DNA of 64,000 nucleotides, from the NCBI GenBank assembly GCA_047967505.1, contig CM106538.1; one strand, 5' to 3'. How positions within the stretch are numbered: position 1 is the stretch's first letter; each line of letters starts with the position of its first letter. Position numbers and translations under genes: made by a program. The notes under the pieces were generated by a model, which saw only the letters and a list, made by a program, of their open reading frames with translations, made no database searches and was not told where the DNA came from. The stretch comes from Dipteris shenzhenensis. Lineage: Eukaryota. Positions 7,901 through 52,200 of the stretch are shown one piece after another.

Positions 7901-10900
7901 GTGGTTCTAGTGATGCCCTATAGGCCATGGTATGTGCCTTGTAGGCATAAGTGTAGGCACTTATAGTGTTAGTGCCTTCTATGCCACATAGGACACTTAG
8001 TCCTATGTGACACCTAGGACACTTAGTCCTAGGCCTAGGTACAAGTACTTTGTACTTGTGTTTTTCAACCTTATCTAAGTTTGACGTGACTTCTCTTTCG
8101 ACTCGTCTTGTACCTGCACTCTCTCTCTCTCTCTGACCCGTACCTTAAGTGGTATCAGAGCAGGTATTGCTCTAGCCCTCCAGCTCTCCTCAGCCCCGAG
8201 CCCTCCATAGCTTATTGGAAGTTTTCTGCCCTGCTGGTCGACACATTCCCAGGCTGTTCGAGGTGTATCTTCAGTGGCTGCGTCCGTACTGCACGAAGCT
8301 GTACCTGCGCGTTGCATCGTTGTACTGAAATCCTGCATCGCCGTACTTTGCGTCGTACCTTCCGTACGTGTAACGTACACTGCGCAGTACCTTCCGTACG
8401 TGAGCATACCTGCGCCGTACTCGTACTCTGCGCCGTACATCAGTCGTCAACTGTACTTGCGCCGTTGTACTGTACCGTACATGAGCAGACCTGCGTCGTA
8501 CTCGTACTCTGCGCCGTACATCCGTCGTCAATTGTACCTTCAGTCGTCAACTGTACCTGCGTGGTACCGTACGATGCGCTGTACTCCATCCGTACGTTGT
8601 AGTGTACCGTACGCCGTTTGGTACCTTCGCTGTACAAGGTCCTTGGTCTCACTGCAGTCATCTACAGATTTGGGGCTTTTGCAGGACATTGGCAAATTTG
8701 GGGTTTTCATTTCCTTTCACCTCCTTTAATTGCAATTTCTTGCAAGAAATTGGAGTTTTGGGATTTGTTCTGCAATTTCTTGTTTAGATTGCAGTACATT
8801 GGGTCAGATTGCAGGACATTCAGTTACATTTGCAGGATATTGAGTCAGACTTCCATACATTGGGTCACATTTGCAAAATTTCAGCAAAATTTGGGACTTT
8901 TCTGAATTTGCCCTCTTTTTGGCCTATTTGCCTTCAATAAATTTGGGGCTTTTGCCAAATTTGCTGTTTTTGCAGTGAACATTGCCTGTCACAGTCACAT
9001 TTGGGTCAGATCTGCATTTGCCCTTTGATTTGGGTCAGAAATTTGCAGATATTTGCTGTCATTTTTGGGACAGCCAGCTTTTTGTAGTGATAGCCTTGAG
9101 GCTTTTGGGTTTTCAGGTCTTTTACAGGTTATCACAGTTGCTATGGCTGGGAACAATCAAGATTTATTTGGAGTTCTTCGTGGAATATTGTTTCTGGGGT
9201 TGATCTGAGCACAGCAGCTGCAATTCCTCTACGCATAGCAGCTGCAATTCCTCTACGCATAGCAGCTGCAATTCCTCCCATGCATCTGCGCACAGCAGCT
9301 GCAATTCCTCTACGCATAGCAGCTGCAATTCCTCCCATGCTCTTTTTGTGCCTGGCATTGAAGTCAACTTGATTTCAATTTCAGCAATTGCTACTTCAGG
9401 TTTCAGAGTGATTTTTGATGGCTACAGATGCCTAGTATATGATCTTCGTGATGACAATGCCATAGTTGTCACTGGCACTTTGCAAAAAGGGCTTTATCAC
9501 CTTGATCATCATTCAGCTGCACTTTCTACTGAAGCATTAGCTATTTCAGATTCACAGCTTGCTGAAACTCATCTTTGGCATGAGAGAATGGGCCATCTCA
9601 ATTATAGAGCTCTTGCAAAGCTACATTCACAGCAAATGGCAAATGATGTACCTCAGACTCACACAGTTTCTAAACATGCGTGAGGGTTGTCTTTTGGGTA
9701 AGATGCATCGATTTCCTTTTCAAAAGAATTGTCTAAAACTCTCACAAAGGAAATTGCAGGTAGTACACAGTGATGTCTGTGGCCCAATGAGGACAAATGC
9801 CATTGGAGGATACAAGTATTTCATGACTCTCATTGATGATTTCACAAGGTATTGCTGGGTATATCCTTTAAAGGCCAAATCTGAAGTTTTCTTATGCTTT
9901 CAGAGATGGCTGAATATGGTTGAGAATGAATCAGGATGCAAGCTTGTCACCCTCAACACAGGTAGGGGGGGTGAGTATATGTCAAAGGAGTTTGATGCAT
10001 TTCTATCCTCATGGGGCATTATTCACTTATGCACTACTCCTTACACTCCTCAGCAGAATCCTGTTTCTGAAAGGAAAAACAGGTCCACAATGGAGATGGC
10101 CAGATGCATGCTTAAGGCCAAGTCTTTGCGCAATAAATTTTGGCTTGATGCAGTAATGTGTGCCAACTATGTGCTGAATAGATCACCTACACGGGCATTA
10201 AAGACTATTATACCTTATGAAGCATGGAAAGGCAGGAAGCCTTCACTTTCACACATGAAAGTTTTTGGGTCTCTTGCATATGTTCATGTACCATCTCAGC
10301 TGAGACATAAGCTTGATGACAAGGCAATCAAATGCATATTCATTGGTTACAGCCAAGAGAGCAGAGGGTATCGGTTATATCAACCAAATACTGGGAAGAT
10401 TATTGTCAGTAGAGATGTGATCTTTGCTGAACATTCAGCTTCTCCTCTTGTGGACTGCAAAGCAAAGCCAGATATTGACATGTTTGATGCCTTTGAATCT
10501 TGGTTACCTCTACCATCATCAGAAGAGGATTTTGAGCAGCCTCCTGCAGGCCCTCCACGAAGCAATAATCAGCCCCTACCTCATGCTGATTTGCAAGTTT
10601 CTCTTCCGGCACAAAATGGTCCCACTACTCATGATGCAGTCATTTAAGAAAGAGTTGTCAATAGACAGCAAAGGCAAGTTCCCAGATGGCTTCTTGACAC
10701 ATTGAGGGACAGCAAACAAGATCAGCCTTTTGCTGCCCGGACAAGATCAGGGAATAGACAGCATGGTCACTTTCTTGAGTTTGCACTCCTTGCTACAGCT
10801 TGCAATGAAGAGCCTTTGTGCCATAAAGATGCTTTTGACAGCAAAGAGTGGATGCATGCAATGAAAGCTGAGTTACAATCTATTCGATTGCCAAAAATGA

Positions 10901-13900
10901 CACTTGGGAATTAGTAGATCTCCCACCTGGCAAGCATGCCATTTGAACGCGGTTAGTCTTTAAATTAAAAAGGAAATCTGATGGAAGCATAGAATGATAC
11001 AAAGCCCGTCTTGTTGCAAAAGGGTATGCCCAACAACAAGGCATTGACTTTGAGGAGACATTTGCTCCCACATCTAGGATTACCATTCGATGTGTCATTG
11101 CCATTGCAGCCTATCATCATTGGCAAGTGCACCAACTTGACATCAAGACTGCCTTTCTTCATGGGGATCTGCAGGAAGAAGTCTATGTCACACAACCTCC
11201 TGGCTTTGAGGTTGTTAATTTTGAAAATAAGGTATGCCGGCTTAGAAAAGCCCTTTATGGTTTAAAGCAGGCACCCAGGGCATGGTATGCCAAAATTCAT
11301 GCACTCTTTCAGAATAGTCCCACAGAACCCACTCTTTATTTCCGTGGGAGTGGATCTGATTTTTTAGTGCTGATTTTATATGTGGATGATATGCTTATCA
11401 CGGGCCCAGATACTCAGCAGATTGCAGCTTTCAAGGCTGATTTGCAGCAGATTTTTGACATGTCAGACATGGGACAGCTCCATTATTATTTGGGCATTCA
11501 GTTTGCTCATGTTGAGGGGGGTATCATGATGTCTCAGTCCAAGTATATTGGACAGCTCCTTGATCGTTGTCAGTTTGAGGATTGCAAGCCAATCTCTACT
11601 CCAGTGGACCCTGGCTTCAAATTCTCAGCTCATGATGGGAGCCCACCATGTAATATCACTCTTTATCAGCAGGCTGTTGGATGCCTTATTTATTTATGTC
11701 ACACGAGACCTGACTTGCAGTATGCAGTATCTCAGCTCAGCAGATTCATGCACATGCCCAGTTCACAGCATTGGCAGGCAGTGAAGAGAGTCGTCAGATA
11801 TCTCAGAGGCACTCAGGATTTAGCCCTCTTCTATGGTGATCAGGGTTCACTTACCATGCATGCTTACACGGATAGTGACTGGGCAGGATGTTCCGACACC
11901 AGAGTGTAACATACTGGCAATTGTTTTTTGCTTGGCAATTCATGTATTTTTTGGCTCAGCAAGAAGCAACCGACAGTTGCCACGTCTAGTTGTGAGGCTG
12001 AGTACAGGGCAGCCTTCACCGCTACAGTAGAGTGTGTTTGGCTTCGACAGTTACTTACAGATCTTGGTATTTGCCAGACATCCTCCACTATTGTCTACAC
12101 TGATAGCCAGAGTGCTTTGGCCAATGCGCGTAACCCAGTGTTTCATGTGCGTACCAAGCATATTGAAGTTCACTATCATTATGTTTGGGAGCGGTTGTCA
12201 GCAGGAGACGTAGAGTTGTCCTATCTTCCCACATAGGACAACATCGCAGATATGTTTACAAAGGCACTTCCTCGTCCCAAGTTCGAAGTCTTCCGACAGG
12301 CTTTACACTTGGTTCCCTTTGTTACATGATCTGACATTCCTTGTACATTCATAGGTGGCTATATCCTTTTGGATGAACATGTGCCACCATGACCAGAAAC
12401 TACCAGGTATTCTGAGACGTTTCCAGAGTACTTCAGCCCATTTCATGGAGGGGGGTTTGTAGGCCATCTTTTGGTGGTTCTAGTGATGCCCTATAGGCCA
12501 TGGTATGTGCCTTGTAGGCATAAGTGTAGGCACTTATAGTGTTAGTGCCTTCTATGCCACATAGGACACTTAGTCCTATGTGACACCTAGGACACTTAGT
12601 CCTAGGCCTAGGTACAAGTACTTTGTACTTGTGTTTTTCAACCTTATCTAAGTTTGACGTGACTTCTCTTTCGACTCGTCTTGTACCTGCACTCTCTGTC
12701 TCTCTTTGACCCGTACCTTCATGGAATAGGAGGAACTTGCTGTAAATCCTGATTTTCAGCAGGGACGTCATATGCGGAACCCAAAGCAATGGGTAGTAAT
12801 CCCTCAAAAACATCATCTGATGTAGAAGAAGCTGGCACATTAAATCCAGCTTGTGTATGTGCTGAAGTTTCTGAAAAGATCTGTCACGGGGGCGTGAAAT
12901 TCTAATTACTTTAATGTGCTACGAGGCTGTGACAAATTTGGCTTTAAAAGTCCAAGTGTGGGCTTAATAATGTGAATTTAAATGTGGCATGGTACCTAGC
13001 ACATAAGTGTAATTAATCCGTAGGCCCAAGGGCATTCAAAGGATTTAAAGGGTGGTTTGATGGAAATGATGTGGCAACTTTAGTGGTTTGGCCTCTCCCA
13101 AAACCAATCTAGCCCAGTCTAGAGCATTCAAGAGGTGGTTTTTGAGTTTTCTAGATGGGTTTGGTTATTTCTAGTGTTTTTGAGGCTTCTCTTCCAAGAA
13201 CTGGAATTTCTTCGTGCTTTTGCAACCCTCACAAAGCTGAGTGACGAATTTTGCCATAGCTCCTCACCCGTTGGATTCCGCGATCTTTGTTTGTCCCAAT
13301 GGCTTCCCCTCTACCTCCCCTACGCACTTATACCCTTTTCTTGAAAGGCGCTTTGTAGATTTGGCTGAGTAGTACAGCCAGAGTGAGGAAGGTAACTAGA
13401 GGAGGTAAGGCAAGATGAAAGGAGTATGCTTGAGAAGAGGATGTAAGGCTGCGGGCAAGATGGAAGGAGCAAGCTTGAGGAGAGGAGTAAGGTAAGAAGA
13501 GCAAAGTGGAAGAAGTGTTTGTTGCGGGTGAGATATAGAAGACGAACGACTACTAGGGGATTTATAGAACTGCAGACTCATAATGTGGGATAAGATTTAG
13601 AATAAAGAATTGGTAGAGGCTGAGATGATTAGATTATCTGAAGTAACAGATGCAAGACCGTAATGCGAGACGTGTGAGACATGTAAGATAGTGAGTACAT
13701 TGAAATCTATAAAATAAAATGATGGGATGCAAGACCGTAATGCGAGACATTTGAGACATGGTGAGCATTCATAAACAAGAGAGCTCCATAACTCTTCAAA
13801 GGAGAAGGCAGGCACGCCTTGAAGAACAAGCTAGTGTACAGTCACATGGAGTTCATCAAATGCCTATGGAGCAGGCCACAGATGAAGCCACACGTCAGCT

Positions 13901-16900: not shown

Positions 16901-19140
16901 TCGTACAAAACTTTTTATGGAGTGGTCTAGATGGCACAACTGATGTTACAGCCAGGGTGGCTTGGGAGACCTTGATTCTTCCTACAAGAGAAGGGGGTTT
17001 GAATATCATCGACCCGGATCTACACTGCAGAGACTTACTTTGCAAGGTCGTTGTGAGAGGACTTATGCCAGGGCAAGAGCCTTGGAAGGATTTCTTTATC
17101 AGATGCATACAGTCTCGCACGCCCACTTCAGGAGAGGATTGGACGCATAGCACCAGATGGGTTTTCACCACAGCCCACCTCAGATCTCCCTCTTCCCCTC
17201 TTATGGTTGCTATCCTGAAAGCATGGGCCAGCTTCAGGAGTACACTTCGCAAGATTCCCCCATCCACCCGTGAAGAGATTGAAAGGCAGCCTATCATGTG
17301 GAATGACAGTATTTTGGATGAGCATGGCAGACCACTTGGAGCTTCTCCTTACATGCAGTGGCCAAGATGGGAGAGGGGCCCTGCTTCTACCGTGGGAGCA
17401 TGGAAAGCATTCAGGAAGCTTCTTGCAGGCCCACAGGCACAGATGGTTCTTAATCTGAGAGGAAGTGTAGGGAGAGTCCAGCAGATTGATGCAGCCTTGC
17501 CCTTGGATTGGGTGGACACAGATGACGTGCCTATTTCTTGCTCCACCTGGATGGGGGCATTTTTCAGATTGGGAGTTTCTTTACAGGTGATTGCTTTTCA
17601 TGACACACATGAGGATGCCTTAGTCTTTGATGTTTCTTCAGGGGGTAGGCTGTCCAAATCCACAGAAGATATGTTGTTGGAGGTACCGTTTCAGCCAGTC
17701 AGGATAGTGGGCTTCATGGAGCATGGCTCTCTTTCACAGTGGTACTTGGATCGTGACCCGCTTCTCATTGCCCTGGGCTCATGGAGGCTGTGGCTGTATG
17801 GAGGTTTTTGCAGTGGGACCCTGGGAATGGGAATGGATAGATGAAGGGCACCGAAAGAAGGGCATCCCCTTCTTTCGTTACACGGTCAGTAATGCCAGGA
17901 AATTCCAGCTCAGCTCTAGGGGTTGGAGGCCTACCAGAGCTCCTCATTGGGTGAACTTTCAGATTTCTGCTGACTTGCAGAGAATTTTTTGGCAGAGGCT
18001 CTAGGAATCCCACCGGAAAAGAAAAATCACTTTCTTCTTTTGGCTTTCTATTCATGGTGGGATAGCAGTGAATCATTGGAGATCCAGGTTTGGGGCTGAC
18101 CCTACGTGCCCTCATTGCCTTTCTGCTTCGGAGACAATACAACACTGCCTTTGGGATTGCAGACAGGTGAGAACCATATGGAAGGGGATTGCAAGACTTT
18201 CAGCTTTTTTGTTCGCCTCCCCTTCTATATGACCCGGGGATTAGTGGATTGGCTCACTCTTTTAGGGCCGCAGGTTTTCTTTGAGAGACATGACTCCTCT
18301 TGGGCTCTTCACATCCGACGATACCTTATGGAGTCGTGCTCTCTAGAGGATGTTCCGGCCACTTTCTTCAGGGCTGCTCATTCCTCGGTTGACTCTCCAT
18401 GGGAGATCTTAGCTAGCATTGTAGCATGGCACATTTGGAGAGCGAGATGCACTGAGGCTTTAGAGGGTTCTCAGGTTCACCCTTCTCAGATCTTGGCCAG
18501 TACTTGGACAGATACGGTACACACTCTGATGGCCATTTGGGCGACCATGCAGGGATCCTCTCGAGCAGCCTCCTCCAGGAGAGTTGCTTTTCTCAAAGAT
18601 TGGAGAGACTCTCCCTTCTTTGTTGAGACTTCTACAGGGTTGAGTTGGCATTTTCATGTTGGAATCGAAGTCCTAGTGTGTGTGGTCCTAGAGTCCTAGG
18701 AGTGTCCTACAGTTGTGTGTGTGAAGAGTCTTGAGGCCACTTATGCCACCTCATGTGGTAGGTGTGATTCCTCCCCTAGATTATAGGATCTAGATTCTCT
18801 TGTGTGTGACCTCATCTATGAGGTGTCTGTGTGGGAAGATAAGGCTTGCCCAGCCTATAAACGAGGCTGTGTACTTGCTGTGAATATACCATCTATCAAT
18901 CTATCAACATCAGTTCGTGCCTCAGATCTTGTCTCTCACCCTCTCCCCATTTTCAACAGTTGGTATCAGAGCAGGTCTTCCCTGACTGAGCCTTGCCTCA
19001 TCGCCATGTCTGTGTGATAACATTACCACACGTCGCCATGTCTACGTTGCTGACCAGCAGGCCGTTCCGAATCCGCCCAAAGAGGGGCTTGCGTCTGATT
19101 AGCTAGTTGGTGAGGCAACGGCTTACCAAGGCGACGATGA

Positions 19141-19176
<36 letters not shown>

Positions 19177-19177
19177 T

Positions 19178-19216
<39 letters not shown>

Positions 19217-22200
19217 AAATCTTCCGCAATGGGCGAAAGCCTGACGGAGCAATGCCGCGTGGAGGAGAATGCCCGCTATCTTCCCTGATGCTGCGTCATT
19301 CTGCCCGTCCTCCCTCGCAGTTTGCTCATGCCTCCCTCGCAATCTGCTCACGCATCCTTCGTAATCCTACCCGCTACCTCTCTCCTCCGCTGGGCCACTC
19401 TAGTTCCACATGAGCTCCTACCCAAGCCTCATCATCGACTGCTCTTTAGCATCAGCTCAGTATGACACTATTCTGCCTACGTGGTTCACCTCTCTTGATG
19501 CTGCAACTACTTGTTTCCTCACCGAATCTGCATCCACAAGAGGATATGTATGCCGATTCTTCCTAGTACTTGGACAGGGCGTATCCTGCCATTTGCTGTT
19601 CACGATCTGTTGTCCATGATTCGGCTCATTGATTCCTTGCTGCCTCCCTGTCTCTTGAGGATGCCTTGATGCAGTAGCAGCCCTGCTCTATCTCTATTCA
19701 GACCGACTTGAACCCTGCTCTAAGTTGAAGCTCGCAGCAATTCAGTCGTCATTTTGACTGCCTCAGGCCCTGTTCGTGACCCATTTCCTGCCCGAAACCC
19801 TAATTTTCGCCCCTTTACAATTTATGCTCAACTTCTCGAATTTTTTGGGTGTTTTCATGATGTGAGGGTTCCCAACTGTTGAACGAGAACTCTTCTGTCA
19901 GAAATTTAGAAAAGCCCCAATTTTCTGCAAACCCTAATTTTGCAGCAACCCTAACCCTAAAATTTAGGGCTTTTCTGTTTTGTGTCTTCCTTTGGCATAA
20001 TTGAAGCTTCTTTTTGCCAAATTCATGTAATTTCATCACCATTTGGTACATTCATTTGGGAATTTTGCCCCCCTCCTTGGGCCTAATTGCTCAAACTTGA
20101 GATTCTTCTCCGACATTTGGTGACTCTCACTCTGTCACTTTGAGAGTCATGGGCTGATTGTCCCATGTAGCTGCTCCCATGGCCGACATCGACATATCTT
20201 CCGGGCATTCCCGTTATGCGCTTCATCGACACTTCATCGATACGGGGGAATGTGCACACTCTTGAGCAAGCAGCTACTTCGGACTTATGCGGGTTCTCCG
20301 CCCTTGCTATGCATAAAATGAATATATATTTTCTATATTCCTCATGTGTGTTAGGTACTCTGCCTTGGGTAGTCCCCCTAAAATGATGTAATAATTTGTC
20401 ATTTTGTGTGCCTTGTCCTATAAAAGACTCCACTTATTTCCATGTACCCAGTTAGGAGACAGGGGGGGTTGTTGTGTCTTTCCTTTATCAGGCCTGGCCG
20501 AGTTCCAGGATGTTGGTGTACTCCCTAGACCTATGAGTTGGTCATGCATCCATGCTCAGATTTGAGTCTCTGATCACGTTGACACCTAAGCCATGAGAGT
20601 GCTTGGTTCAACCTCTGAATTATGCTCAGCTGTTAGCCTCTGAGATTGCCTGGGATGCACAGTTTGGATGATGTCATAATTTCCCACCCTAGCTCCGAAG
20701 GGGGGTTTGTTGGAATCGGAGTCCTAGTATGTGTGGTCCTAGTGTGTGTGGTCCTAGAGTCCTAGGAGTGTCCTATAGTTGTGTGAGTGTGAAGAGTCTT
20801 GAGGCCACTTATGCCACCTCATGTGGTAGGTGTGATTCCTCCCCTAGATTATAGGATCTAGATTCTCTTGTGTGTGACCTCATCTATGAGGTGTCTGTGT
20901 GGGAAGATAAGGCTTGCCCAGCCTATAAAAGAGGCTGTGTACTTGCTGTGAATATACCATCTATCAATCTATCAACATCAGTTCGTGCCTCATATCTTGT
21001 CTCTGACCCTCTCCCCATTTTCAACATTTCAGCCTCAGCGTTGGTTTGTTTCTGCCTCATTCTTCTGAGGTGTTTTTTATTACATGCTCAGCATGTTGTA
21101 TTTCCGCACAGAGCTTGTTGTAGCGAGTTTCTTTCTTACTTAATAGAAGTCTCTTTTTTGCAAAAAAAAAAAAAAAAGGCCTCAAATTCCTGAGACATAT
21201 ATTGCCTCCTCTATCTGTGCGTAGAATCTGAACTGTGAGTCGTGTTTCATTTTCAACCTCTGCCACAAAGTGTCGATAACACTTAAACACATCTGATTTT
21301 TTCTTTTAACCATAGACCCAAGTGTAGTTTGAGTAGTCATCAATGAATGTGACATAATAGAGATAACCACCCAATGCAGGAGTCCTCATGGGACCACAGA
21401 CATCACTATGAATGAGCTGTAATTTTCAAACTGCTCGTACTGCATCATCCTTCTTGAAGGGAAATCTGTGCATCTTTCCAAGCATCCACCCTTCACAAGC
21501 ATGAGGGTGAGGTGACTCCAAGGGAGGCAAAGCATCAACCATAGAATGCTTTTTCTAGATACGGTCATAACTCATATGCCCATATTTAGCATGCCATAAT
21601 TCTGTATTCTGCATAGCAACAGTGGGAGAAGAAATTGCATGTGCATCATCTAGTCTTTTCTAAAAAACATCAAGCTAAAAAAGACCACGAAACAGCATGC
21701 CATATAGCCTCAAGGCCCTCAAGGCATAATCATCTTCTCTATCTCGAACTGCACACTTGTCATCTTCAAAGAGAACCAGAATTCCTCTTTTATTGAGAGA
21801 GGACACTGAAAGCAAAATCTTCTTGATTCCAGGTACATAAAGCACATCATGAATTCTGAAATTTGTGCCATCTGTGGCTGTAAGTACAATCTCACCAATA
21901 CTTTTTCCAGCGGGTGATGGATGCAGAGAATCAAACAAACACTTCCTGGAAGTGATATGTTTGGTGGCACCATTATCAAAGTACCAATTATTCAATGTCT
22001 CATTGACATTGAAAGTGCATGAATCCTTAGAAGGATCATAACTGCAAGTCAGAAAAGCATAAGTGTCATCCTCAGATGTGGCTGTAATTTCCGGAGCAGC
22101 CATCTGAAAATCAGAAATGCAAGTAAAAAAGGCATAGTCTTCTTCCACTAAGTTGGCTGAAGCATCACCATCATGTGCTTGAGGAGCTGAATCTGTGACA

Positions 22201-43200: not shown

Positions 43201-46200
43201 GGACTTAAGCCATCTCTCTAGATCATTATAGATGATCAAATCATGGATCCTGCCCATATCTATGAAGGTGTGCTTGCAACCTTCAACGCTCACAATCCTT
43301 CAGCATAGCTCATTTCTTGGCGACATGCCAATTGTCAAATTTTAAACTGCTTTCCTAATTACATGGCACCTAAGGGCAACTCTGGAGTCTTCGAAGCACT
43401 TGGTCACGGGGTGACTAGTTGCTTGCTAAGCTCCATATTGCTTGGGTCTGCAATCCCTCTTAGTACCAGCAACAATTAACTAAAGCGCACAACCATGGCA
43501 CCCATTCATGGTTAGCGCTTTGTAAGCAAATAATAATCTGTGGGCTAATATCCTTTCACTAAGAATGTCCCCACCAAGCAAACATGTGCACATAATATAC
43601 AACAATTTCTCTTGTTGACCAAGGTCAACTCTCTTGATCATAGTTAAGGGGTTGGACTGACAGTCGAAGCGCCTTAATTATGGCCAAGTCTCTCCAACCG
43701 AAGTTGGCACATCTTGGTTAACCGTAGTTAACCCTCTTGGCGTAAGCCAAGTCTCGTTGATTGAAGTCAACACTCTTTGACCGAAGTTAACGATGTGGTT
43801 CTTTGGCTAACCGTAGTTAAGCCTCTTGGCCTAGACCAAGTCTTCGTAATCGGGGTTAGGGTTACTTAACCAGAGTTAAGTATCTTTGACCGAAGTCAAT
43901 ACTTTGATTAATAAAAGATAACTCTTTGAACATATTTAAATAAATGAAGAACTCTTTAATTATGATCAAATAAATGATCAACTAGAACTATGACTTGGAG
44001 TATTTACAATTTGGTGACATTCCCTCGACTTCTATTTAGTTGACCTCAAATGAAAAGCTTCCTTGTAAATATCCAAAAGCTCGAGATGATGAGAGAACAT
44101 GTTTGCATCCATCCACTTGGCTGAATAGTTCTTGAATCCTGTAAAATTCCTTGCCCAGGAGGCCTTTGCGTACAATATGGTACACAATCTGCTCTAGCTG
44201 AAGGCCCTCCTCCAGCTCAGTCACTTCCAGTTGCTTTTGTTATTGCCTCTGTAGGCTCCGGTTCCTGATATTTCTTTAAAAGACTCACATGAAAGGCATT
44301 GTGAATTCTCCAATGCTCTGGCAGTGCCAATTTGTATGCAACCTCATTAATGTCATATGTACCCTGAAAGGGCCATAATACCTGCGAGATAACTTTGCAT
44401 ACACTTTTTCTTTGCCTTGAAGCTTGTGGAGCCTAGTTTTTGAACTTCAAAAGTACCAAATCCCCTCGCTTAAGATCTAGCTGTCTCCTGGGCTTATCTA
44501 CAGCCTTCTCATGCTTTTCTTAAGATCTTTCTATTGCTGTCCGAACCTGGCTGAAAGCTGTCTGGAGGTTTCAGACATACTGATCACCTGCAAAAATCTC
44601 ATCTTTAGTCCTCAGGATAGGTGGCAGAATCACCTTTCCATAAATGACCTCAAAGGGGGCTTTTCCTGTGGAGGTGTGAACAATATTATTATATGTGAAC
44701 TCCACGGTGGAAGGTACTTGTCCCAGTTGATTTTTGATCAGCCACGTAGTATTTCAATAGCTCCAACACTGTCAACGCTACTCTGCTTTGACCATCTGTT
44801 TGGGGATGGAAAGAAGAATAAAAATTCAGATTCGTCCCTATATTATAAAAAAGGGTTCTCTAGAATAGACTGGGCATTATAGGATCTCGGTTACTGACAA
44901 TGGACTTAGGCATACCATGGTGCTTAAAGATCTGTGCCATGAAAAGTTTAGCCATATGATATGTCTTTATAGTTTTGCGTACTAGAATGAAATGAGCTTG
45001 CTTGCTGAATCTATCAATGATAGTCCAAATCCCAGATTTTGATCTTGGTAAATAAAAAATGAAGTCCATTGAGATACTTTCCTAGGTGCCTTCCGCCTGT
45101 CATGTTTGACCTTTAGACAAGTGAGGCATTCTGTAACAAATTGATGTATATCCTTTTTTTTTTTCCCAAGAAAAAGACCTCTATTAAGTAAGAGAAAAAA
45201 CCCGCGAGAGCAAGCTCAAAGCGGAATACATCATGAAATCATAAGGATAAATAAAAACCCCCTTAGAGTGAGGTGGAAAACAACCAAGGCTGAGGCTGAA
45301 AGTGCCACCTCAACCCTATAGTAGTTTCAGAGAAGAAAGGAGAATCCTTCCATTCCATGAAGAAAAAAGCCCTCCTAGCTGAGGCTGCACGGGAGTCTCC
45401 CTGCATACCCGTCCATATGGCCATCAAAGTATGTACGATGTCTGTCCAGATACTAGCCAATGTGTGCGAGGGATGAACCTGAGTACCCTCCAAAGCCTCT
45501 GTGCATCTGGCTCTCCAGATATGCCAGGATGCTATGCTCGCTAGAATCTCCCAAGAAGTATCCACAGAGGCATGTACAGCTGTAAAAGGAAGGTGTGGTA
45601 CCACATCCAACGAACAGGACTCAATCCGATGACGTCGAACCGAAATGGCACGAGAGGAGTCAACTCTCTCATAGAAAACCTGAGGTCCTGTAAGAGAAAG
45701 CCAAGCCACTGAGCCCCATGTCATAAAAAATGGAGAATGGGCAAAGTGACTGAAAATCCTGGCTACCCCCATCGAAATCATCCTCGCCTGTCTGCAATCC
45801 CATAAGCAATGCTGAATAGACTCCGAAGCAGAAAGACATCGAGGGCATGTAGGGTCGGCTCCGAACCTGGACCTCCAAAGGTTCACTGCAATCCCTCCAT
45901 GGATAGAAAGCCAAAAGAAGATAGTGATCTTTCTATTCCTGTGGGATTTCCAGAGTCTCCTCCAGAAGCACCTCTGTAGATCCGCAGTAATATCAAAAGT
46001 CTCCCAATGAGGAACTCTGGAAGGTCTCCAACCTCTACTACTGAGCTGATATCTCCTGGCATTACTGACCGTGTAATGAAAGAAGGGGATGCTCTTCTCT
46101 CGATGCCCTGCGTCAATCCACTCCCACTCTTCGGGGTCCCACTGCAAATACCTGATGGGAACTCCCCCATAGAGCCAGAGCCTCCAAGACCCGGTGGAGA

Positions 46201-49200
46201 GTAGCCGGGGGTCTGGGTCTAGGAACCACTCTGAATCTGATCCCTGCATCAAAAGACCTACAACCCTGATAGGCTGAAAAGCAGACTCAAGCAAGATGTC
46301 CTCTGTGGACCTGAGCAATCTGCCACCATCCTGGACACTAAAAACCAAAGCATCGTCATGTGCATCTCGAAAGGCCAAAACTTGAAGCGGAACCCCACCT
46401 CTCGAAAAAGTACCTGCCCAAGTGGAGGAAGTGAGTGGCATATCATCTGTGCCTACCCAAACCTCTGGAAGGGCTGCCTCAATCTGCAAGATCCTCCCTG
46501 CACTCCCTCTAAGATGTCCTGTCAACCTTGATTTGGTCTCCTCTCGAAGCCTGCGGAAAGCTTTCCAAGACCCCATAGAAGATGCAGGTCCCCTCTCCCA
46601 CCTGGACCACTGCATGTAGAGTGAGGCACCCAGTGGTCTGCCATGATCGTCTAAAATACTGTCATTCCACATGATGGGTTGCCTATCAATCTCTTCCCGA
46701 GAGGAAGGAGGAATCCTCCGAAGAGTGCTTCTGAAACTGGCCCAAGCTTTCAGAATGGCAACCATGAGAGGGGACGAAGGTGATCTGAGGTGTGCTGTGG
46801 TGAAGATTCATCTAACAGTGCTCATCCAGTCTCCTCTTGAAGAAGGTGTGCACCTCTGTATGCTGCTGATAAGAAAGTCCTTCCACGGTTCTTGCCCTGG
46901 CATAAGTCCCCGCACCACCATCTTGCAAAGTAAAGCTCTGCACTGTAAATCTGGATCAATAATATTGAGACCCCCTTCCTGTGTAGGGAGGATGAGGGTC
47001 TCCCAAGCCACCCTGGCTAAGGCATCTGCTGTGCCATCAAGCCCACTCCAGAGAAAGTTTCTGATCGGTCTTCTGAGCTGAATGATGCAGTCCCTAGAAC
47101 GGCACCAACATGAACAAACAAACCAGGCTGTGGCCAAGAGGACCTAGTTGACCACCACAACTCTAGAGGCAAGATCCAGCTTGGGTGAGCTCCAAAAAAG
47201 AAGCTTCCTTCTGATGCTCTCCAAAACGGAAGCAAACTGCTGCGTGGTAGAAATATCCAAGCCGACCTGGCAGCCCAAATACCTGATAGGCTCACCCCTC
47301 TGAACCCAAGTGAATCCTATGTCAAGCCCCCAAACTGGAGTGTCCTCATCACTGATCCAAAAGCCATTGGATTTATGCGAATTTAACTGTGCCCCTGCCG
47401 CCAAGCAAAATAAATCCAATGCTGTCCTGAAAGAAGTGAGCGTCTGTGGAGTGGCATCCAAGTAAACTGCTGTGTCATCTGCCAACTCACTGTCAAGAAG
47501 CTCCTCTTCCCTTCTGATGGGAAGTCTCAGCCCAAAGATGTCAGCTTGAGATCTAACATATATACTCATAGCTTCGGCCACGAACAAAAAAAGGAAAGGA
47601 GCAAGGGGGCATCCCTGACGGACTGATCTCGAAATCTGAAATCTCTTACCCCTTACCCCACCAATAAGTACCTAGCTGTGGGCTGATCTGTACAAAGAGG
47701 AAACACCTCTGATCCAAGCATCAGTAAAGCCAAAGCGTAGAAGGGTGCCCTCCAAAAAACCCCAATCTACTCTGTCATAAGCTTTTTCAAAATCCAATAG
47801 TAGAATGGCAAGATTCTGGCCACTCTGAAGCTTCCTAGAAAGAAAAAATGTTATAAAAAATGCTTCTGCCATGCACAAATCCCATCTGAGTGTCATGAAT
47901 GAGATCAGGGAGAAGTGGCTGCAATCGGAGGCTGATAGCCTTGGCCAGAATCTTGTAACAAGTCCCCAGAAGTATGATAGGCCTGAAAGGGACTGAAGGG
48001 GGAAGAAGAGCAAGAGGGAGAGAGTGAGAGAGAGAGAAGACTCAAGGTGTGTGGGTGTGAAGTGATGAGCCACACCACAAACTCATTTGTTTTATTAGGA
48101 TTAGGTTTGCCCTATGACTTTCTTAAGACAGTCATAGGTGTCCTATCTTTAATGAAGGGTTGGCAATGTGCCTTTACCCCAACAACCTCCCACCTAAAGG
48201 CCAATGTGCCTAAAGGGGAGAAAAGAATAAAAATTACAGCAATATACAGTTACTGTATACAAGACCATAAAATAAGAATGGTCTCATCCTAATCCCATGA
48301 TGTGGCGGCAATGTGCAAACCGCTCTGTAGGCAAGCTCTTAGTGAGCAAATCTGCAGGATTATCATCAGTATGCACCTTCACAAGCTCAAGTCGCTTGTC
48401 TTCCAGTACCTCCCTGATGAAATGATATTTCACTTCTATGTGCTTGGTCTTCTGATGAAAGACCGGATTCTTTGGCAACACGGACGAGTGGCAACCATGG
48501 CATACATCAAAGAACCAACTGCAGATGCATACGGAACCTTGGCCATTTCAGCCTTATCATCATCTGATCTGGGGCTGTCCTTACTGCTGAGTTTTAAATG
48601 TGGAGGCAACGGGGTACTAATAGACTTCCCCCCCTCCATTTTAAACCTCTGCAGTACTTTGTCAATATACTCCTTTTGTGACAGAAACAAAAGTCCCTTG
48701 GACCTGTCACGAGTAATCCGCATGCCAAGAATATGATTTGCATCACCCAAGTCTTTCATGTCAAAAGACTTATGCAGTTGTTTCTTCAAAGCACTAATCT
48801 CATGCTGAGATTTACTGGCAATAAGCATGTCATCCACATATAGAATGAGTAGCATCAAACTGCCATCCTTTGCCCGTTTGGTGTACAAGCAATGATCGGT
48901 CTCACACCTATGATACCCTTGGGACTGCATGAAGGCATCAAACTTCCTGTACCATTCTCTTGGCGCCTGCTTGAGTCCATACAAGCTCCTCTTGAGCTTA
49001 CACACAAGCTGCTCTTTCCCTTTAACAGCATATCCCTCTGGCTGACTCATATAGATCTCATCATGGAGATCTCCGTGAAGAAAGGCTGTCTTCACATCCA
49101 TCTGACATAAATCCATGTCGTCATGAGCAACAAGAGCTAACACTGCTCTCAAAGTAGTCATCTTGACTACAGGGGAAAAGATCTCATCAAAGTCAATGCC

Positions 49201-52200
49201 CTTCTCCTGCTTCAATCCCTTGGCAACCAATCTGGCCTTATACCTAGGTAAAGCATTTGAATCCACTTTGACTTTGTAAACCCACTTGCATGGCAAAACC
49301 TTTCTGCCTGCAGGTAACTGCACCAAGTCCCATGTATCATTCTGAAGTAGGGAGTCCATTTCTGACTGCATGGCTTTCTCCCACTTCTTTTTCTCCGTTC
49401 TTCCCATAGCTTCCTTGAAGCTGGAAGGCTCACCACAATCTGTCAGCATGATAAAATCAGCCACATTATTGGCTCCTGGAACAAACCTGGCAGGAGGCCG
49501 TTGTACACGGGTGCTCCTTCTAACAAAATGTTCCGGATTAGGCTGCTGTCCAACCTGTTCTTCATGCATGACGGGTGGCTGTACCACCATATCTGGCTGT
49601 TCTACAGCCCCATCTGCTGGCACATCCAGTGGTGCATCATTGGCAAAATTATCTGGCTGATTGTCAGCCTGTATACCCTCTTGAACAGGGTGATCTGCAG
49701 CAGCCTGCTGCTGCATATAAATGGGCATTCTTTGCTGTCCAACATCATCATAAATAACCCTCCTGTATTCCACAGGTTGCACGGGTTCCTTGTGTACACT
49801 ATCCTCTTTAAAGATGACATCATTGCTGCGTATAATCTTCCGTTTAACGGGATCCCATAACCTGTACCCCATTTCACCTTCGTCACCATAACCCATAAAG
49901 ATGCATCTGATAGACTTTGGATCCAGTTTGGTGCGCAGTTCTTTGCGTACATGAGCAAAACACTCGCAGCCAAATACACGTAAGTGCTTATATGAAGGTG
50001 GCTTGCCAGACCACACCTCCTCTGACACTTTCAACTCCAAAGCCTTGTTTGGCGACCTGTTAATAATGTGAACTGCTGTTTGCACGGCTTCTGCCCTAAA
50101 ACCATGGGGTAATGCAGCATAAGACAACATACATCGAACCTTCTCCTGAATAGTTCGATTCATACGCTCACTTGCACCATTTTGAGATGCATTATGAGGG
50201 GCTGTGAGTTCCTGTTTGATGCCCTTAGCTTGGCAAAACTGCACAAAAGCATGTGACACATACTCACCCCCATTATCGGATCTGAGGCATTTCAGCCTGC
50301 GACCTGTCCGATTCTCAACCTGAGCGACAAACTTCTTGAAAGCATCTAAGGCATCTCCCTTATGCTTCAAGAAATAGACCCACACTTTGCGTGTGGCATT
50401 ATCAATGAAAGTAATAAAATATTTTGCACCCCCTAGTGATAACTGTGGCATCTCACACAAATCAGTGTGCACTAGATCAAGTGGTGCTCTATTCTGAGGA
50501 GTTCTCCTCTTATGAGGAGTCACAGAATGCTTGCCAAATATACAATGATCACAAGTAGGCAAATCTGAAAAAGAAAGAGGCGGCAGATAACCCAAACGTG
50601 ATAGTTCTCTGATCAAGCAATAATTGCATATGAGCCCTTGCTGCAGCAAGGCGCTCCTGAATCCAAGCATCCCTCTGCAAAGCTGCCAACTGCTGGCGAA
50701 CACCAATCTCACGTCTGAGAATATCTTGTCTCCTGGTACAAGCAATTGAGCGGTAGAAGTCGCTAATACCAGAAAGGGCAGCGGCTACATGTGATGGATA
50801 TGGCTGCCCACCCTGGACATGAGCAACCCATATCTGCAGGGCTGCCTCTGTAAGGTCCTCCTCTGTGTAAAAGGCATCTGGAATCCTGATGCTGGCAGAC
50901 CGGCCTCTCAAGTGAGGCTCTGAGATAGCCAGCACAACAGGAAAGTGGTCTGAAGTGGAAACCCTAGCAGCAATGCATACCGATCCACCTCTGTCTAGTG
51001 CCCAGTCATCTACATAGAATCTGTCAATGCGTGCATGAATAGGCATTTGTTGCCTCCTGTTCGACCAAGAGAACAGGAGGGACTGTGGCTGAATAAGAAA
51101 GGCATCATCACACCAAGTATCTCTGCCACAGAAGTGAAAAAGGAAGGCATCCCAAGCTGCTCTCTCCAAAGAGTGAAGTCCGTCTTCTCTACCCCTTTTT
51201 TGTCTGACGGTAACTCGACCATGTTAAAGTCACCTCCAATCACCCATGAATCCACAATGGGGGCCGAGGAGAGCAAAGTCTTCCACATAAGGACACGTTC
51301 CCCTCTAATGTTGGAGGCATACAGGTTAAGGAAACCAACCTTACGCCCTCCAATCAAAAGAATAATCCACTGAGCTCTAGAGGGAATAATGACTCCGTGC
51401 CCAACAACTAAGGGGAGAACCGACTGCGAAACTGAAATAGAAGTGCCCCCCCTGGTGCCCAAGGCAGGCGACCAAAAGGTATGGCCAGAAAGCAACTTGC
51501 CTGACTTGGCACAATCTCTAGAATCCAGCTTGTGCTCTTGAATAAATAATATATCAATGGAACCCCCAGTAACACCTGGATGAAGCTGATCCCGGATCAG
51601 CTGTCTACGGCGGCGATGTGGGACGCCACCTAGGCCCTGTATGTTCCAACTAATAATCCTCATCGACGGGAGGATGTAGAGTGGAACACCTTACCCGACC
51701 TAGTGGCAGAAACAAACGTCTCAACAGGGGAAGACCTCCTACTCGAGGAGGGAGGGATGGAACCAAGGAGGGATGGAACCAAGTGGCGGAAAATCAACAG
51801 GGGAAAGAACCCTGGCACCTAAATGAAATACCTCTCTAAAGCCTGAGTGGTAGCTGCAATTCCTCTATGCCCAGCATATGTAGGTGCATGGCATTCCTCT
51901 AGAATCTTTTGCCTCATCTCTCTGATGATGCATAAGCAGTCATCTTTCATTAGGTATTCATCTTTTAGGGAATAGTGACTGGTGGACTGCCCCTCTTGCA
52001 CTTGCTGAGAAATTTCACCATAATCTACGTCATTGTCATATTGCTCTCTCATACCTTCCAGATCCCTATGATAGCCAATAGTTACATTATTCACCTGGGG
52101 TCTTTGAGACAAAGCATTTGCCACTTTGTTTTGTATATTTGCCCATTTCATGCGCTTCTTGGAGAGCTTAGTCTGAGTCAAGAAATATCGGAGATTTTGG

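What the first reader, a model, noticed from the sequence alone, without database searches (positions are those of the whole stretch)
18657..21026. Non-coding LTR retroelement carrying a plastid 16S rRNA fragment just behind its PBS
Seen: a complete 2.37-kb element (near-identical LTRs, iMet PBS, PPT, TTTCA TSD, no gag/pol). About 100 nt after the PBS it holds about 200 nt of plastid-type 16S rRNA in sense orientation (19069-19265), including the 341F site CCTACGGGAGGCAGCAG at 19196-19212. Known: Cassandra TRIMs carry 5S rRNA sequence, and LTR elements can capture co-packaged RNA by template switching; the post-PBS leader is where packaging/dimerisation structures sit. Inference: if the fragment is a fixed part of a multicopy family, this is an organellar-rRNA-bearing retroelement that amplifies a NUPT. 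It could use rRNA helices as a structural module or produce siRNAs matching rRNA. I am not aware of a described family like this, but I cannot search.
Basis: partly seen in the sequence, partly recalled or inferred. Interest (0 to 1): 0.78.

Follow-up and report, generated by a model that had tools for sequence, protein, structure and literature searches.

The report
Plastid 16S scrap inside small retrotransposon
A small non-coding plant retrotransposon really does carry a decayed 195-base piece of chloroplast 16S rRNA gene, but what could be checked suggests passive cargo of this copy or a small sublineage, an ordinary kind of event.

Summary
Window 18657-21026 is a complete non-coding LTR retrotransposon with 302 and 319 nt LTRs, an iMet-type PBS, a PPT and a TTTCA target duplication. 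It sits in the 3' end of a LINE, and two uninterrupted paralogous sites confirm its ends. Bases 19071-19265 are plastid-type 16S rDNA in sense orientation (Rfam 148 bits).

The exciting reading, a fixed rRNA module of a multicopy family, is not supported. No host genome was held. Contigs of four public runs from four studies show that the LTR, the leader up to 18999, 19783-20037 and 20342-20707 recur in related plants. One contig joins 18999 directly to 19783, skipping or replacing the block that holds the 16S piece. Another sibling contig appears to match only up to 19067, three bases before the piece. No listed contig bridges either 16S junction.

The piece differs from the plastid contigs at 4 of 195 sites, including universally conserved ones, so it is a decaying nuclear copy and not an assembly chimera. 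The age comparison with the LTRs is inconclusive (P = 0.15). The leader does not fold better than shuffles (z = -0.83).

Plastid DNA riding with retrotransposons is already in print. Interest is low.

The parts
18100..18656 (+). Host sequence: C-terminal part of a LINE ORF2-like frame into which the element inserted. The last 5 bases (18652-18656, TTTCA) are the left copy of the target duplication.
   Evidence: The 185-aa translation is 59% identical (E = 1e-70) to the C-terminus of the zf-RVT-bearing ORF at 45263-46807(-). That paralogue reads straight through a single TTTCA at 45297-45301(-).
18657..18958 (+). 5' LTR, 302 nt, TG...CA ends, TATAAA at 18856-18861.
   Evidence: It is covered by contigs in X1, X2, X4 and X3. 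One example is a 311-nt X2 contig that spans exactly 18657-18958 (table 8). That the TATAAA is the promoter is inference.
18959..19070 (+). PBS (18961-18972) and leader. 19000-19028 is a 29-nt local duplication that is missing in one X1 contig.
   Evidence: table 5, shows the joint 18999->19029 (X1, depth 27). By my arithmetic that contig matches 19029-19067.
19071..19265 (+). Plastid-type 16S rDNA fragment (NUPT) in sense orientation. It matches Rfam model positions about 226-396.
   Evidence: The deepest contigs of X1, X2 and X4 match with 3, 3 and 2 other letters over 119, 119 and 100 nt, and they run on unlike the window before 19071 and behind 19265. The best bacterial matches are cyanobacterial: 92.9% over 182 nt and 94.4% over 162 nt.
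19266..19782 (+). Non-coding stretch of unknown origin to the right of the 16S piece. Together with 19000-19265 it forms the block that one X2 contig skips or replaces. It contains a 22-nt tandem pair at 19309-19352.
   Evidence: Joint 18999->19783 in X2 (table 5). There is no similarity elsewhere in the window, no Pfam match and no further Rfam match.
19783..20341 (+). Internal non-coding region. 19783-20037 is shared with contigs of X1, X2 and X4.
   Evidence: table 8: X2 covers 19783-20007 with 10 other letters, X1 covers 19853-19976 with 6, and X4 covers 19901-20011 with 5.
20342..20707 (+). Conserved 3' internal module ending in the PPT (20697-20705).
   Evidence: X4 covers 20497-20649 with 0 other letters in 153, and X3 covers 20491-20714 with 3 in 224. 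Contigs in X1 and X2 join 20707 to 18657, which is the PPT-to-LTR junction of siblings. The X1 contig runs on unlike the window before 20342.
20708..21026 (+). 3' LTR, 319 nt.
21027..21177 (+). Right copy of the TSD (21027-21031), followed by the LINE 3' end with an A16 tail at 21162-21177.
   Evidence: The same layout, with a poly(A) run, is seen in the paralogue. An X4 contig continues from 18656 into letters that agree with 21032-21061 at 26 of 30 positions, counted by eye (table 7).

Best explanation
This is a nested, non-autonomous LTR retrotransposon of 2.37 kb. It falls in the TRIM class by Wicker's size rule, which I recall and did not check. It has no gag or pol, so proteins of an autonomous iMet-PBS element must move it in trans. 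It inserted into the 3' end of a LINE.

The 195-nt plastid 16S rDNA fragment is passive, decaying cargo. It lies at the left edge of a 0.7-0.8 kb block of the internal region (about 19000/19068 to 19782). The commonly assembled siblings in related plants do not share this block. So the fragment belongs to this copy or to a small sublineage and is not part of the family's design.

The most likely origin is capture of plastid DNA as filler when a break or deletion in the internal region of a genomic copy was repaired by end joining. That is the usual route for nuclear plastid DNA.

Shown: the anatomy, the plastid origin, the decay, the nesting, the existence of the family, and one sibling contig that lacks or replaces the block. 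Inferred: the capture route, its timing and trans-mobilisation.
For: - The element's ends are proven by two uninterrupted paralogous sites: window 45297-45301(-) and an X4 contig (table 7).
- The family modules (LTR, leader to 18999, 19783-20037, 20342-20707) are covered by contigs in runs from four studies, at roughly 95-100% identity (table 8).
- One X2 contig (818 nt, depth 14.6) joins 18999 to 19783, across the block that holds the 16S piece (table 5).
- One X1 contig (depth 27) skips 19000-19028. By my arithmetic on table 2 it matches only 39 letters beyond that, to 19067. The bin sum equals 31 positions at the plastid contig's depth of 1582.2 plus 38.9 positions at depth 27. That puts the 16S piece at a structural breakpoint between siblings.
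- The piece differs from the plastid contigs at 19139, 19177 and 19217, plus one unlisted site within 19071-19170 (tables 3 and 8). 19177 and 19217 fall on capital-letter consensus positions of the Rfam bacterial model. This is pseudogene decay.
- The piece starts and ends inside strands of long-range helices whose partners are absent (structure line).
- The leader with the piece folds no better than shuffles: z = -0.83, and 21 of 100 shuffles fold at least as well.
- Nuclear plastid DNA is reported to overlap retrotransposons preferentially (passages of PMC12863932 and PMC11110229).
Against: - The host genome could not be searched, and the four runs may come from other species. No listed run holds half or more of the element's sampled words (best share 0.23).
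- For the X2 joint the tool says 'between: not known', so the block may be replaced and not simply absent.
- Contigs drop rare variants and break at repeats, so a low-copy sublineage with the piece could go unseen.
- Tables 7 and 8 were truncated (198 and 364 rows not shown). A junction-bridging contig could be among the hidden rows.
- The piece is nominally more diverged from the plastid (4 of 195 sites, 2.05%) than one LTR lineage is expected to be (0.83%). That hints it predates this insertion and was carried in by retrotransposition, but the test gives P = 0.15.
- Sense orientation fits RNA-level capture as well as a 50:50 chance at DNA level.
Confidence: 0.52

Rival explanations
1. The piece is retrotransposed cargo of a sublineage. 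Reverse transcriptase switched templates from the element's RNA to a co-packaged RNA and back. The foreign RNA could be plastid 16S rRNA, or more plausibly a nuclear transcript that already held a plastid-derived stretch and now forms 19071-19782. The resulting chimera has since been copied, so several copies in the host genome would share both junctions. This is the reader's 'NUPT-amplifying element' in a modest form, with the piece still neutral cargo.
For: - The piece is in sense orientation relative to the element.
- It sits exactly where sibling similarity ends, at 19067 versus 19071.
- Its divergence from the plastid contigs (2.05%) is nominally above half the LTR divergence (0.83%).
- Contigs of X1 and X2 cover part of the block (bins 19336-19491, depths 5.7/5.4 and 3.05/1.7, table 2), so some of the block recurs in relatives.
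- Abnormal template switching that adds foreign sequence to non-autonomous LTR elements is documented, for example the long Veju TRIM and BARE-2 (passages of PMC13317346).
Against: - The age test is not significant (P = 0.15).
- One X2 contig joins across the block (table 5).
- No listed contig bridges a 16S junction.
- Plastid rRNA is not normally in the compartment where virus-like particles assemble (established knowledge, not tested here).
Confidence: 0.3
2. The piece is a functional rRNA-derived module. The 16S helices would serve the element as a packaging or dimerisation structure, or the piece would yield small RNAs against plastid rRNA, and would therefore be kept by selection.
For: It lies in the post-PBS leader. 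Five local 16S hairpins are still intact in the Rfam alignment.
Against: - The hairpins are intact because the piece is still about 98% identical to its source, not through compensatory change. With one copy no covariation can be measured.
- The fold z-score is -0.83.
- The piece's ends cut through long-range helices.
- There are substitutions at universally conserved sites.
- One sibling contig does without the block.
Confidence: 0.04
3. It is an assembly chimera: plastid reads were wrongly joined into a nuclear repeat.
For: Plastid reads are very abundant in plant libraries, and the piece sits in a repeat-rich region.
Against: - The piece differs from the plastid contigs of X1, X2 and X4 at 4 of 195 sites, including universally conserved positions. 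A mis-joined plastid read would be identical.
- It is embedded in an element with intact LTRs, PBS, PPT and TSD.
Confidence: 0.03

Closest known systems
Nuclear plastid DNA (NUPTs) associated or co-amplified with LTR retrotransposons. Examples are the papaya rps15-containing plastid fragment present 23 times in the male-specific region (PMC3661139, passages read) and the plastid-rDNA NUPTs co-located with Ty3-gypsy-like elements in Copaifera langsdorffii (Gaeta et al. 2010, seen only as cited in passages of PMC12863932 and PMC11110229).
   Same: A short piece of plastid DNA, here plastid rDNA, is physically tied to an LTR retrotransposon in a plant nuclear genome. Retrotransposition is the proposed means of spread.
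   Different: Here the piece lies inside a complete, TSD-flanked, non-autonomous element with defined junctions, and not merely nearby. Only one copy has been seen, and no amplification is shown.
Cassandra TRIMs (abstracts in the listing: bioRxiv 10.1101/2023.07.14.548913 and PMC7215508).
   Same: A non-autonomous LTR retrotransposon that carries rRNA-derived sequence.
   Different: Cassandra carries nuclear 5S rDNA with its internal promoter inside both LTRs, in every member. Here the sequence is plastid 16S, in the internal region. No 5S match was found, and at least one sibling contig lacks the block.
Chimeric non-autonomous LTR elements made by abnormal template switching, such as the long form of the Veju TRIM and BARE-2 (passages of PMC13317346).
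   Same: A foreign block of sequence sits in the interior of a small non-coding LTR element, and the siblings differ by that block.
   Different: In those cases the added block defines a subfamily with many members. That is not shown here, and DNA-level capture is at least as likely.
Helenus and Ajax, non-autonomous LTR retrotransposons derived from small RNA genes (PMC10886601, abstract in the listing only).
   Same: LTR elements that contain sequence of structural RNA genes.
   Different: By the abstract these derive from small RNA genes, which are nuclear (my understanding). No organellar rRNA is mentioned in the abstract I saw.

Membership tests
LTR retrotransposon, non-autonomous (TRIM/LARD class) | Two direct long terminal repeats with TG...CA ends | tested here: met
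   The LTRs are 302 and 319 nt, with 5 substitutions in 302 sites and TG...CA ends.
LTR retrotransposon, non-autonomous (TRIM/LARD class) | Primer binding site next to the 5' LTR and polypurine tract next to the 3' LTR | tested here: met
   TGGTATCAGAGC at 18961-18972 and GAAGGGGGG at 20697-20705. The motif occurs 6 times in the window against 0.01 expected. That it complements the initiator tRNA-Met is recalled. No tRNA gene is in the window to check this.
LTR retrotransposon, non-autonomous (TRIM/LARD class) | Target site duplication and a precise empty site | tested here: met
   TTTCA lies on both sides. Uninterrupted paralogous sites exist at 45297-45301(-) and in an X4 contig (table 7).
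LTR retrotransposon, non-autonomous (TRIM/LARD class) | No gag or pol coding capacity | tested here: met
   The longest stop-to-stop frame is 116 aa. None of 10 frames reaches a Pfam cut-off; the best is DUF6895 at E = 0.13.
LTR retrotransposon, non-autonomous (TRIM/LARD class) | Related copies elsewhere | tested here: met
   The LTR and three internal modules are found in contigs of X1, X2, X4 and X3, which come from four studies. There is no second copy in the window.
Nuclear plastid DNA (NUPT) | Closer to plastid DNA than to any free-living bacterium | tested here: met
   There are 2-3 other letters per 100-119 nt against the deepest contigs of three plant runs. Identity to the best of 120 bacterial 16S loci is at most 94.4%. 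Calling those contigs plastid is inference from their depth and from the cyanobacterial affinity.
Nuclear plastid DNA (NUPT) | Embedded in nuclear sequence and decaying | tested here: met
   It lies inside an LTR element that is nested in a LINE. It has substitutions at conserved 16S sites.
Cassandra TRIM | 5S rDNA-derived sequence with a pol III promoter inside the LTRs | tested here: not met
   No Rfam match other than the 16S piece was found in 18600-21100 at E up to 1. The rRNA piece is internal and plastid-derived.
   No genome was held. One X2 contig joins across the block, and no listed contig bridges a junction, but the tables were truncated and the runs may be from other species.
   The piece has 4 substitutions in 195 sites, against 5 in 2 x 302 sites for the LTR pair. 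The binomial P is 0.15.

The most novel reading that the evidence does not exclude
A young sublineage of this small non-coding LTR element acquired a plastid-16S-containing block by reverse-transcriptase template switching. It is now copying that block around the host genome with fixed junctions. This would be a defined retroelement lineage that multiplies an organellar rRNA fragment.
Probability: 0.25. Interest if true: 0.45.

Novelty: new member of a known kind. Interest (0 to 1): 0.2.

Why it matters
As it stands this is a clean, well-delimited example of plastid DNA lodged inside a mobile element. It is useful mainly as a test case for a question that recent NUPT reviews pose: do retrotransposons spread plastid-derived DNA (PMC12863932, Box 2 passage)?

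The piece has exact junctions and three diagnostic substitutions. A single search of the host assembly would therefore show whether it has been copied. If it has, it would be one of the few cases where carriage of a NUPT inside the transposing unit itself is shown, and not merely inferred from proximity. If not, it is an ordinary one-off insertion.

Tried and rejected
- **Earlier findings.** A sequence search returned only bacterial rRNA loci that share 16S words. Searches with the LTR and 3' region, by place and by words returned nothing.
- **Collection scans for siblings.**
  - A 20-nt leader pattern in metagenome contigs gave 3 loci that match over 23 nt only, which is chance. It gave 0 in prokaryote genomes.
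  - A 28-nt LTR pattern gave 0 in viral contigs and 0 in prokaryote genomes.
  - A 26-nt left-junction pattern gave 0 in viral contigs.
  - These collections hold little plant DNA, so the blanks mean nothing.
- **Protein route to siblings.** The frame across the right junction (residues 36-83) found no candidate. The control frame from the LTR and leader found none either. The library therefore does not hold this family's frames, and one search is uninformative.
- **Parts without contig cover (table 2).**
  - 19492-19725 has depth 0 in X1, X2 and X4.
  - By my arithmetic, bin 19258-19335 in X1 exceeds what the rRNA contigs ending at 19261-19266 should give by only about 30 depth-positions; in X2 and X4 the observed sums are below my estimate, so nothing extra is needed.
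  - In X2 and X4, bin 19024-19101 equals the plastid contig alone.
  - At 19139, 19177 and 19217, all contig depth in X1, X2 and X4 reads the plastid letter.
  - Contigs show presence and not absence, so none of this counts as evidence.
- **Unlaid runs.** Small word shares (0.11-0.14) in runs that I did not lay, including air and plant metagenomes, give no evidence of habitat or host.
- **Expression.** The RNA status of X1 and X2 is a guess, and X3 may contain DNA. No claim is made.
- **Age test.** The comparison of the piece with the LTRs was inconclusive (P = 0.15). If 19266-19276 is counted as decayed 16S, P = 0.037, but that extension is doubtful (30 of 121 bacterial alignments reach 19273 with one gap).
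- **Origin of 19266-19782.** A sensitive search of the internal region against the rest of the window found only PBS matches and noise, so the origin stays unknown.
- **Structure idea.** The fold z-score is -0.83.
- **Host lineage.** I considered naming it from recalled plastid 16S signatures. I rejected this as unreliable recall.
- **Supplements.** Supplementary tables of the NUPT papers were not seen. They may list NUPTs inside LTR elements.
Full report
**What is there.**
- Two direct repeats, 18657-18958 and 20708-21026, begin with TG and end with CA. A global alignment gives 302 against 319 nt, with 5 substitutions (1.66%), a 15-nt tandem duplication and a 2-nt indel.
- TGGTATCAGAGC lies two bases behind the 5' LTR (18961-18972). 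This motif occurs 6 times in the window against 0.01 expected from shuffles. That fits a window full of LTR elements: Copia-type RVT_2 and rve frames at 9541-11909 and 48436-50784(-), and gypsy-type and LINE frames elsewhere. That the motif complements the initiator tRNA-Met is my recollection.
- A purine run, GAAGGGGGG, ends two bases before the 3' LTR.
- TTTCA flanks both ends.
- The interior has no frame above 116 aa. None of its 10 longest frames reaches a Pfam cut-off.

**Where it sits.** The left flank translates to the C-terminus of a LINE ORF2-like protein. It is 59% identical (E = 1e-70) to the zf-RVT-bearing frame at 45263-46807(-).
- The right flank continues that LINE to an A16 tail at 21162-21177.
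- The in-window paralogue reads straight through a single TTTCA and ends in its own poly(A).
- A contig of run X4 likewise continues from 18656 into letters that agree at 26 of 30 positions, counted by eye, with the window after 21031 (table 7).

So the element's ends and its 5-bp duplication are proven by two empty paralogous sites.

**The 16S piece.** Rfam finds one match in the whole window: SSU_rRNA_bacteria, 148.1 bits, E = 8.3e-43.
- The alignment is of high confidence only from about 19068 on. Its left part (18992-19067) has low posterior probabilities and bridges a 96-position model gap.
- When contigs of four public runs were laid on the stretch, the deepest contigs covered 19071-19189 or 19071-19170 with 3, 3 and 2 other letters. 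Their depths were 1582 in X1, 577 in X2 and 2427 in X4.
- In all four runs a contig ran on unlike the window, with one and the same consensus, before 19071 and behind 19265 (tables 7 and 8).
- As a control I fetched 120 prokaryote loci with a conserved 27-nt 16S motif. There were 121 alignments to the 123 loci then held. The best were cyanobacterial (92.9% over 182 nt, 94.4% over 162 nt), and none began left of 19071.

The piece is therefore 19071-19265, plastid-type, on the same strand as the element. That the deep contigs are the plastid gene is an inference from depth and cyanobacterial affinity.

The piece is not identical to them. All contig depth in X1, X2 and X4 reads another letter at 19139, 19177 and 19217 (table 3). 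The per-contig counts imply one more difference within 19071-19170. Two of these sites are capital-letter consensus positions of the Rfam bacterial model. This decay argues against an assembly chimera.

No genome is held, there is no second copy in the window, and the run search listed no run with half or more of the element's words (best 0.23; 20 rows in 12 studies). I laid X1, X2, X4 and X3, which come from four studies. These are contigs only, and it was the single call allowed.

What contigs cover:
- The LTR. An X2 contig of 311 nt spans exactly 18657-18958, and X1 and X4 contigs cover its first 170 nt with 5 and 3 other letters.
- The leader.
- 19783-20037, in X1, X2 and X4.
- 20342-20707. 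X4 shows 0 other letters in 153 and X3 shows 3 in 224.
- In X1 and X2 a contig joins 20707 back to 18657, which is a sibling's PPT-to-LTR junction. The X1 contig then runs on unlike the window before 20342.

So the family is real, and its members share modules but not the whole interior.

Two joints matter:
- In X2 a contig of 818 nt (depth 14.6) joins 18999 to 19783. It skips or replaces 783 nt that include the 16S piece; the tool says 'between: not known'.
- In X1 a contig (depth 27) joins 18999 to 19029, so 19000-19028 is a local duplication in our copy. My arithmetic on table 2 reproduces the X1 bin 19024-19101 as 31 positions of the plastid contig plus 38.9 positions at depth 27. That sibling therefore matches 19029-19067 and no further, three bases short of the piece.

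No listed contig bridges 19070/19071 or 19265/19266. Tables 7 and 8 were cut (198 and 364 rows hidden), and contigs break at repeats and drop rare variants. Uncovered parts are therefore listed only under Tried and rejected.

**Age test.** The LTR pair has 5 substitutions over 2 x 302 site-lineages. The piece has 4 over 195, taking the plastid as unchanged.
- The expected number for equal age is 1.6, and the binomial P is 0.15.
- The excess hints that the piece was already in the RNA that made this copy, but it is not significant.
- The reference contigs may come from another species.
- Counting 19266-19276 as decayed 16S lowers P to 0.037, but that extension is doubtful.

**Function.** Nothing supports a role for the piece.
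- Its ends fall inside strands of long-range 16S helices whose partners are absent. The five local hairpins are intact simply because the copy is still about 98% like its source.
- RNA 18959-19330 folds at -136.8 kcal/mol, z = -0.83, and 21 of 100 shuffles fold at least as well.
- Small RNAs could not be examined.

**Mechanism.** The piece lies at a breakpoint between sibling-shared and unshared sequence. It is followed by 517 nt of unknown, non-coding sequence with no match in the window. Two routes fit:
- End-joining repair of a break or deletion in a genomic copy, with plastid DNA as filler. This is the usual origin of nuclear plastid DNA. I rate it somewhat more likely.
- Template switching by reverse transcriptase to a co-packaged foreign RNA, as described for the long Veju TRIM and BARE-2 (passages of PMC13317346).

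Sense orientation favours the second route only by a factor of two. Access of virus-like particles to plastid rRNA is doubtful, though a nuclear transcript that already held the plastid-derived stretch would do.

**What is known.**
- A plastid fragment with rps15 occurs 23 times in the papaya male-specific region, probably carried by retrotransposons (PMC3661139).
- Plastid-rDNA NUPTs co-locate with Ty3-gypsy-like elements in Copaifera (PMC12863932 and PMC11110229; the original paper was not seen).
- NUPTs preferentially overlap retrotransposons (same reviews).
- A review of rDNA-TE interplay has no occurrence of plastid, chloroplast or organell- (PMC10946416).
- My full-text searches for an LTR element with captured plastid 16S returned no such family.
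- Cassandra differs in every defining respect: 5S rDNA, inside the LTRs, family-wide (abstracts).

**Verdict.** This is a NUPT inside a nested non-autonomous LTR retrotransposon, which is a new instance of a known kind. The bold reading survives only as a 0.25 possibility that a small sublineage carries and copies the piece. One search of the host assembly with the two junctions would settle it.

Noticed in passing
window 18100-18656 and 21027-21177; paralogue 45150-46807(-): The element is nested in the last codons of a LINE ORF2-like frame. With the element and one TSD copy removed, the frame continues for about 12 codons and the LINE ends in an A16 tail. A 59%-identical paralogue elsewhere in the window is uninterrupted.
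   Followed up: yes
window 2160, 8150, 28979, 56604, 61641: Five further exact iMet-type PBS motifs occur in 64 kb against 0.01 expected. This points to at least five more LTR elements with the same primer, among them Copia-type frames at 9541-11909 and 48436-50784(-).
   Followed up: partly
window 20721-20735: A 15-nt tandem duplication (GTCCTAGT[A/G]TGTGTG unit) is present near the start of the 3' LTR only, so it arose after insertion.
   Followed up: partly
window 19000-19043: A 29-nt local duplication in the leader (an 11-nt direct repeat starting at 19001 and 19034) is missing in one contig of run X1.
   Followed up: partly
window 19309-19352: Two tandem 22-nt units, 86% alike, lie just right of the 16S piece. 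Their origin is unknown.
   Followed up: no
window 19795-19967: The internal module shared with siblings holds repeated AAACCCTAATTTT motifs and a telomere-repeat-like AACCCTAACCCTAAAA run. That run ends in the palindrome CCCTAAAATTTAGGG.
   Followed up: no
window 19196-19212: The common bacterial 16S primer site 341F is intact in this nuclear copy, but the piece ends at 19265. The usual reverse sites further down the 16S gene (recalled) would lie beyond that end, so it should not amplify in amplicon surveys.
   Followed up: no
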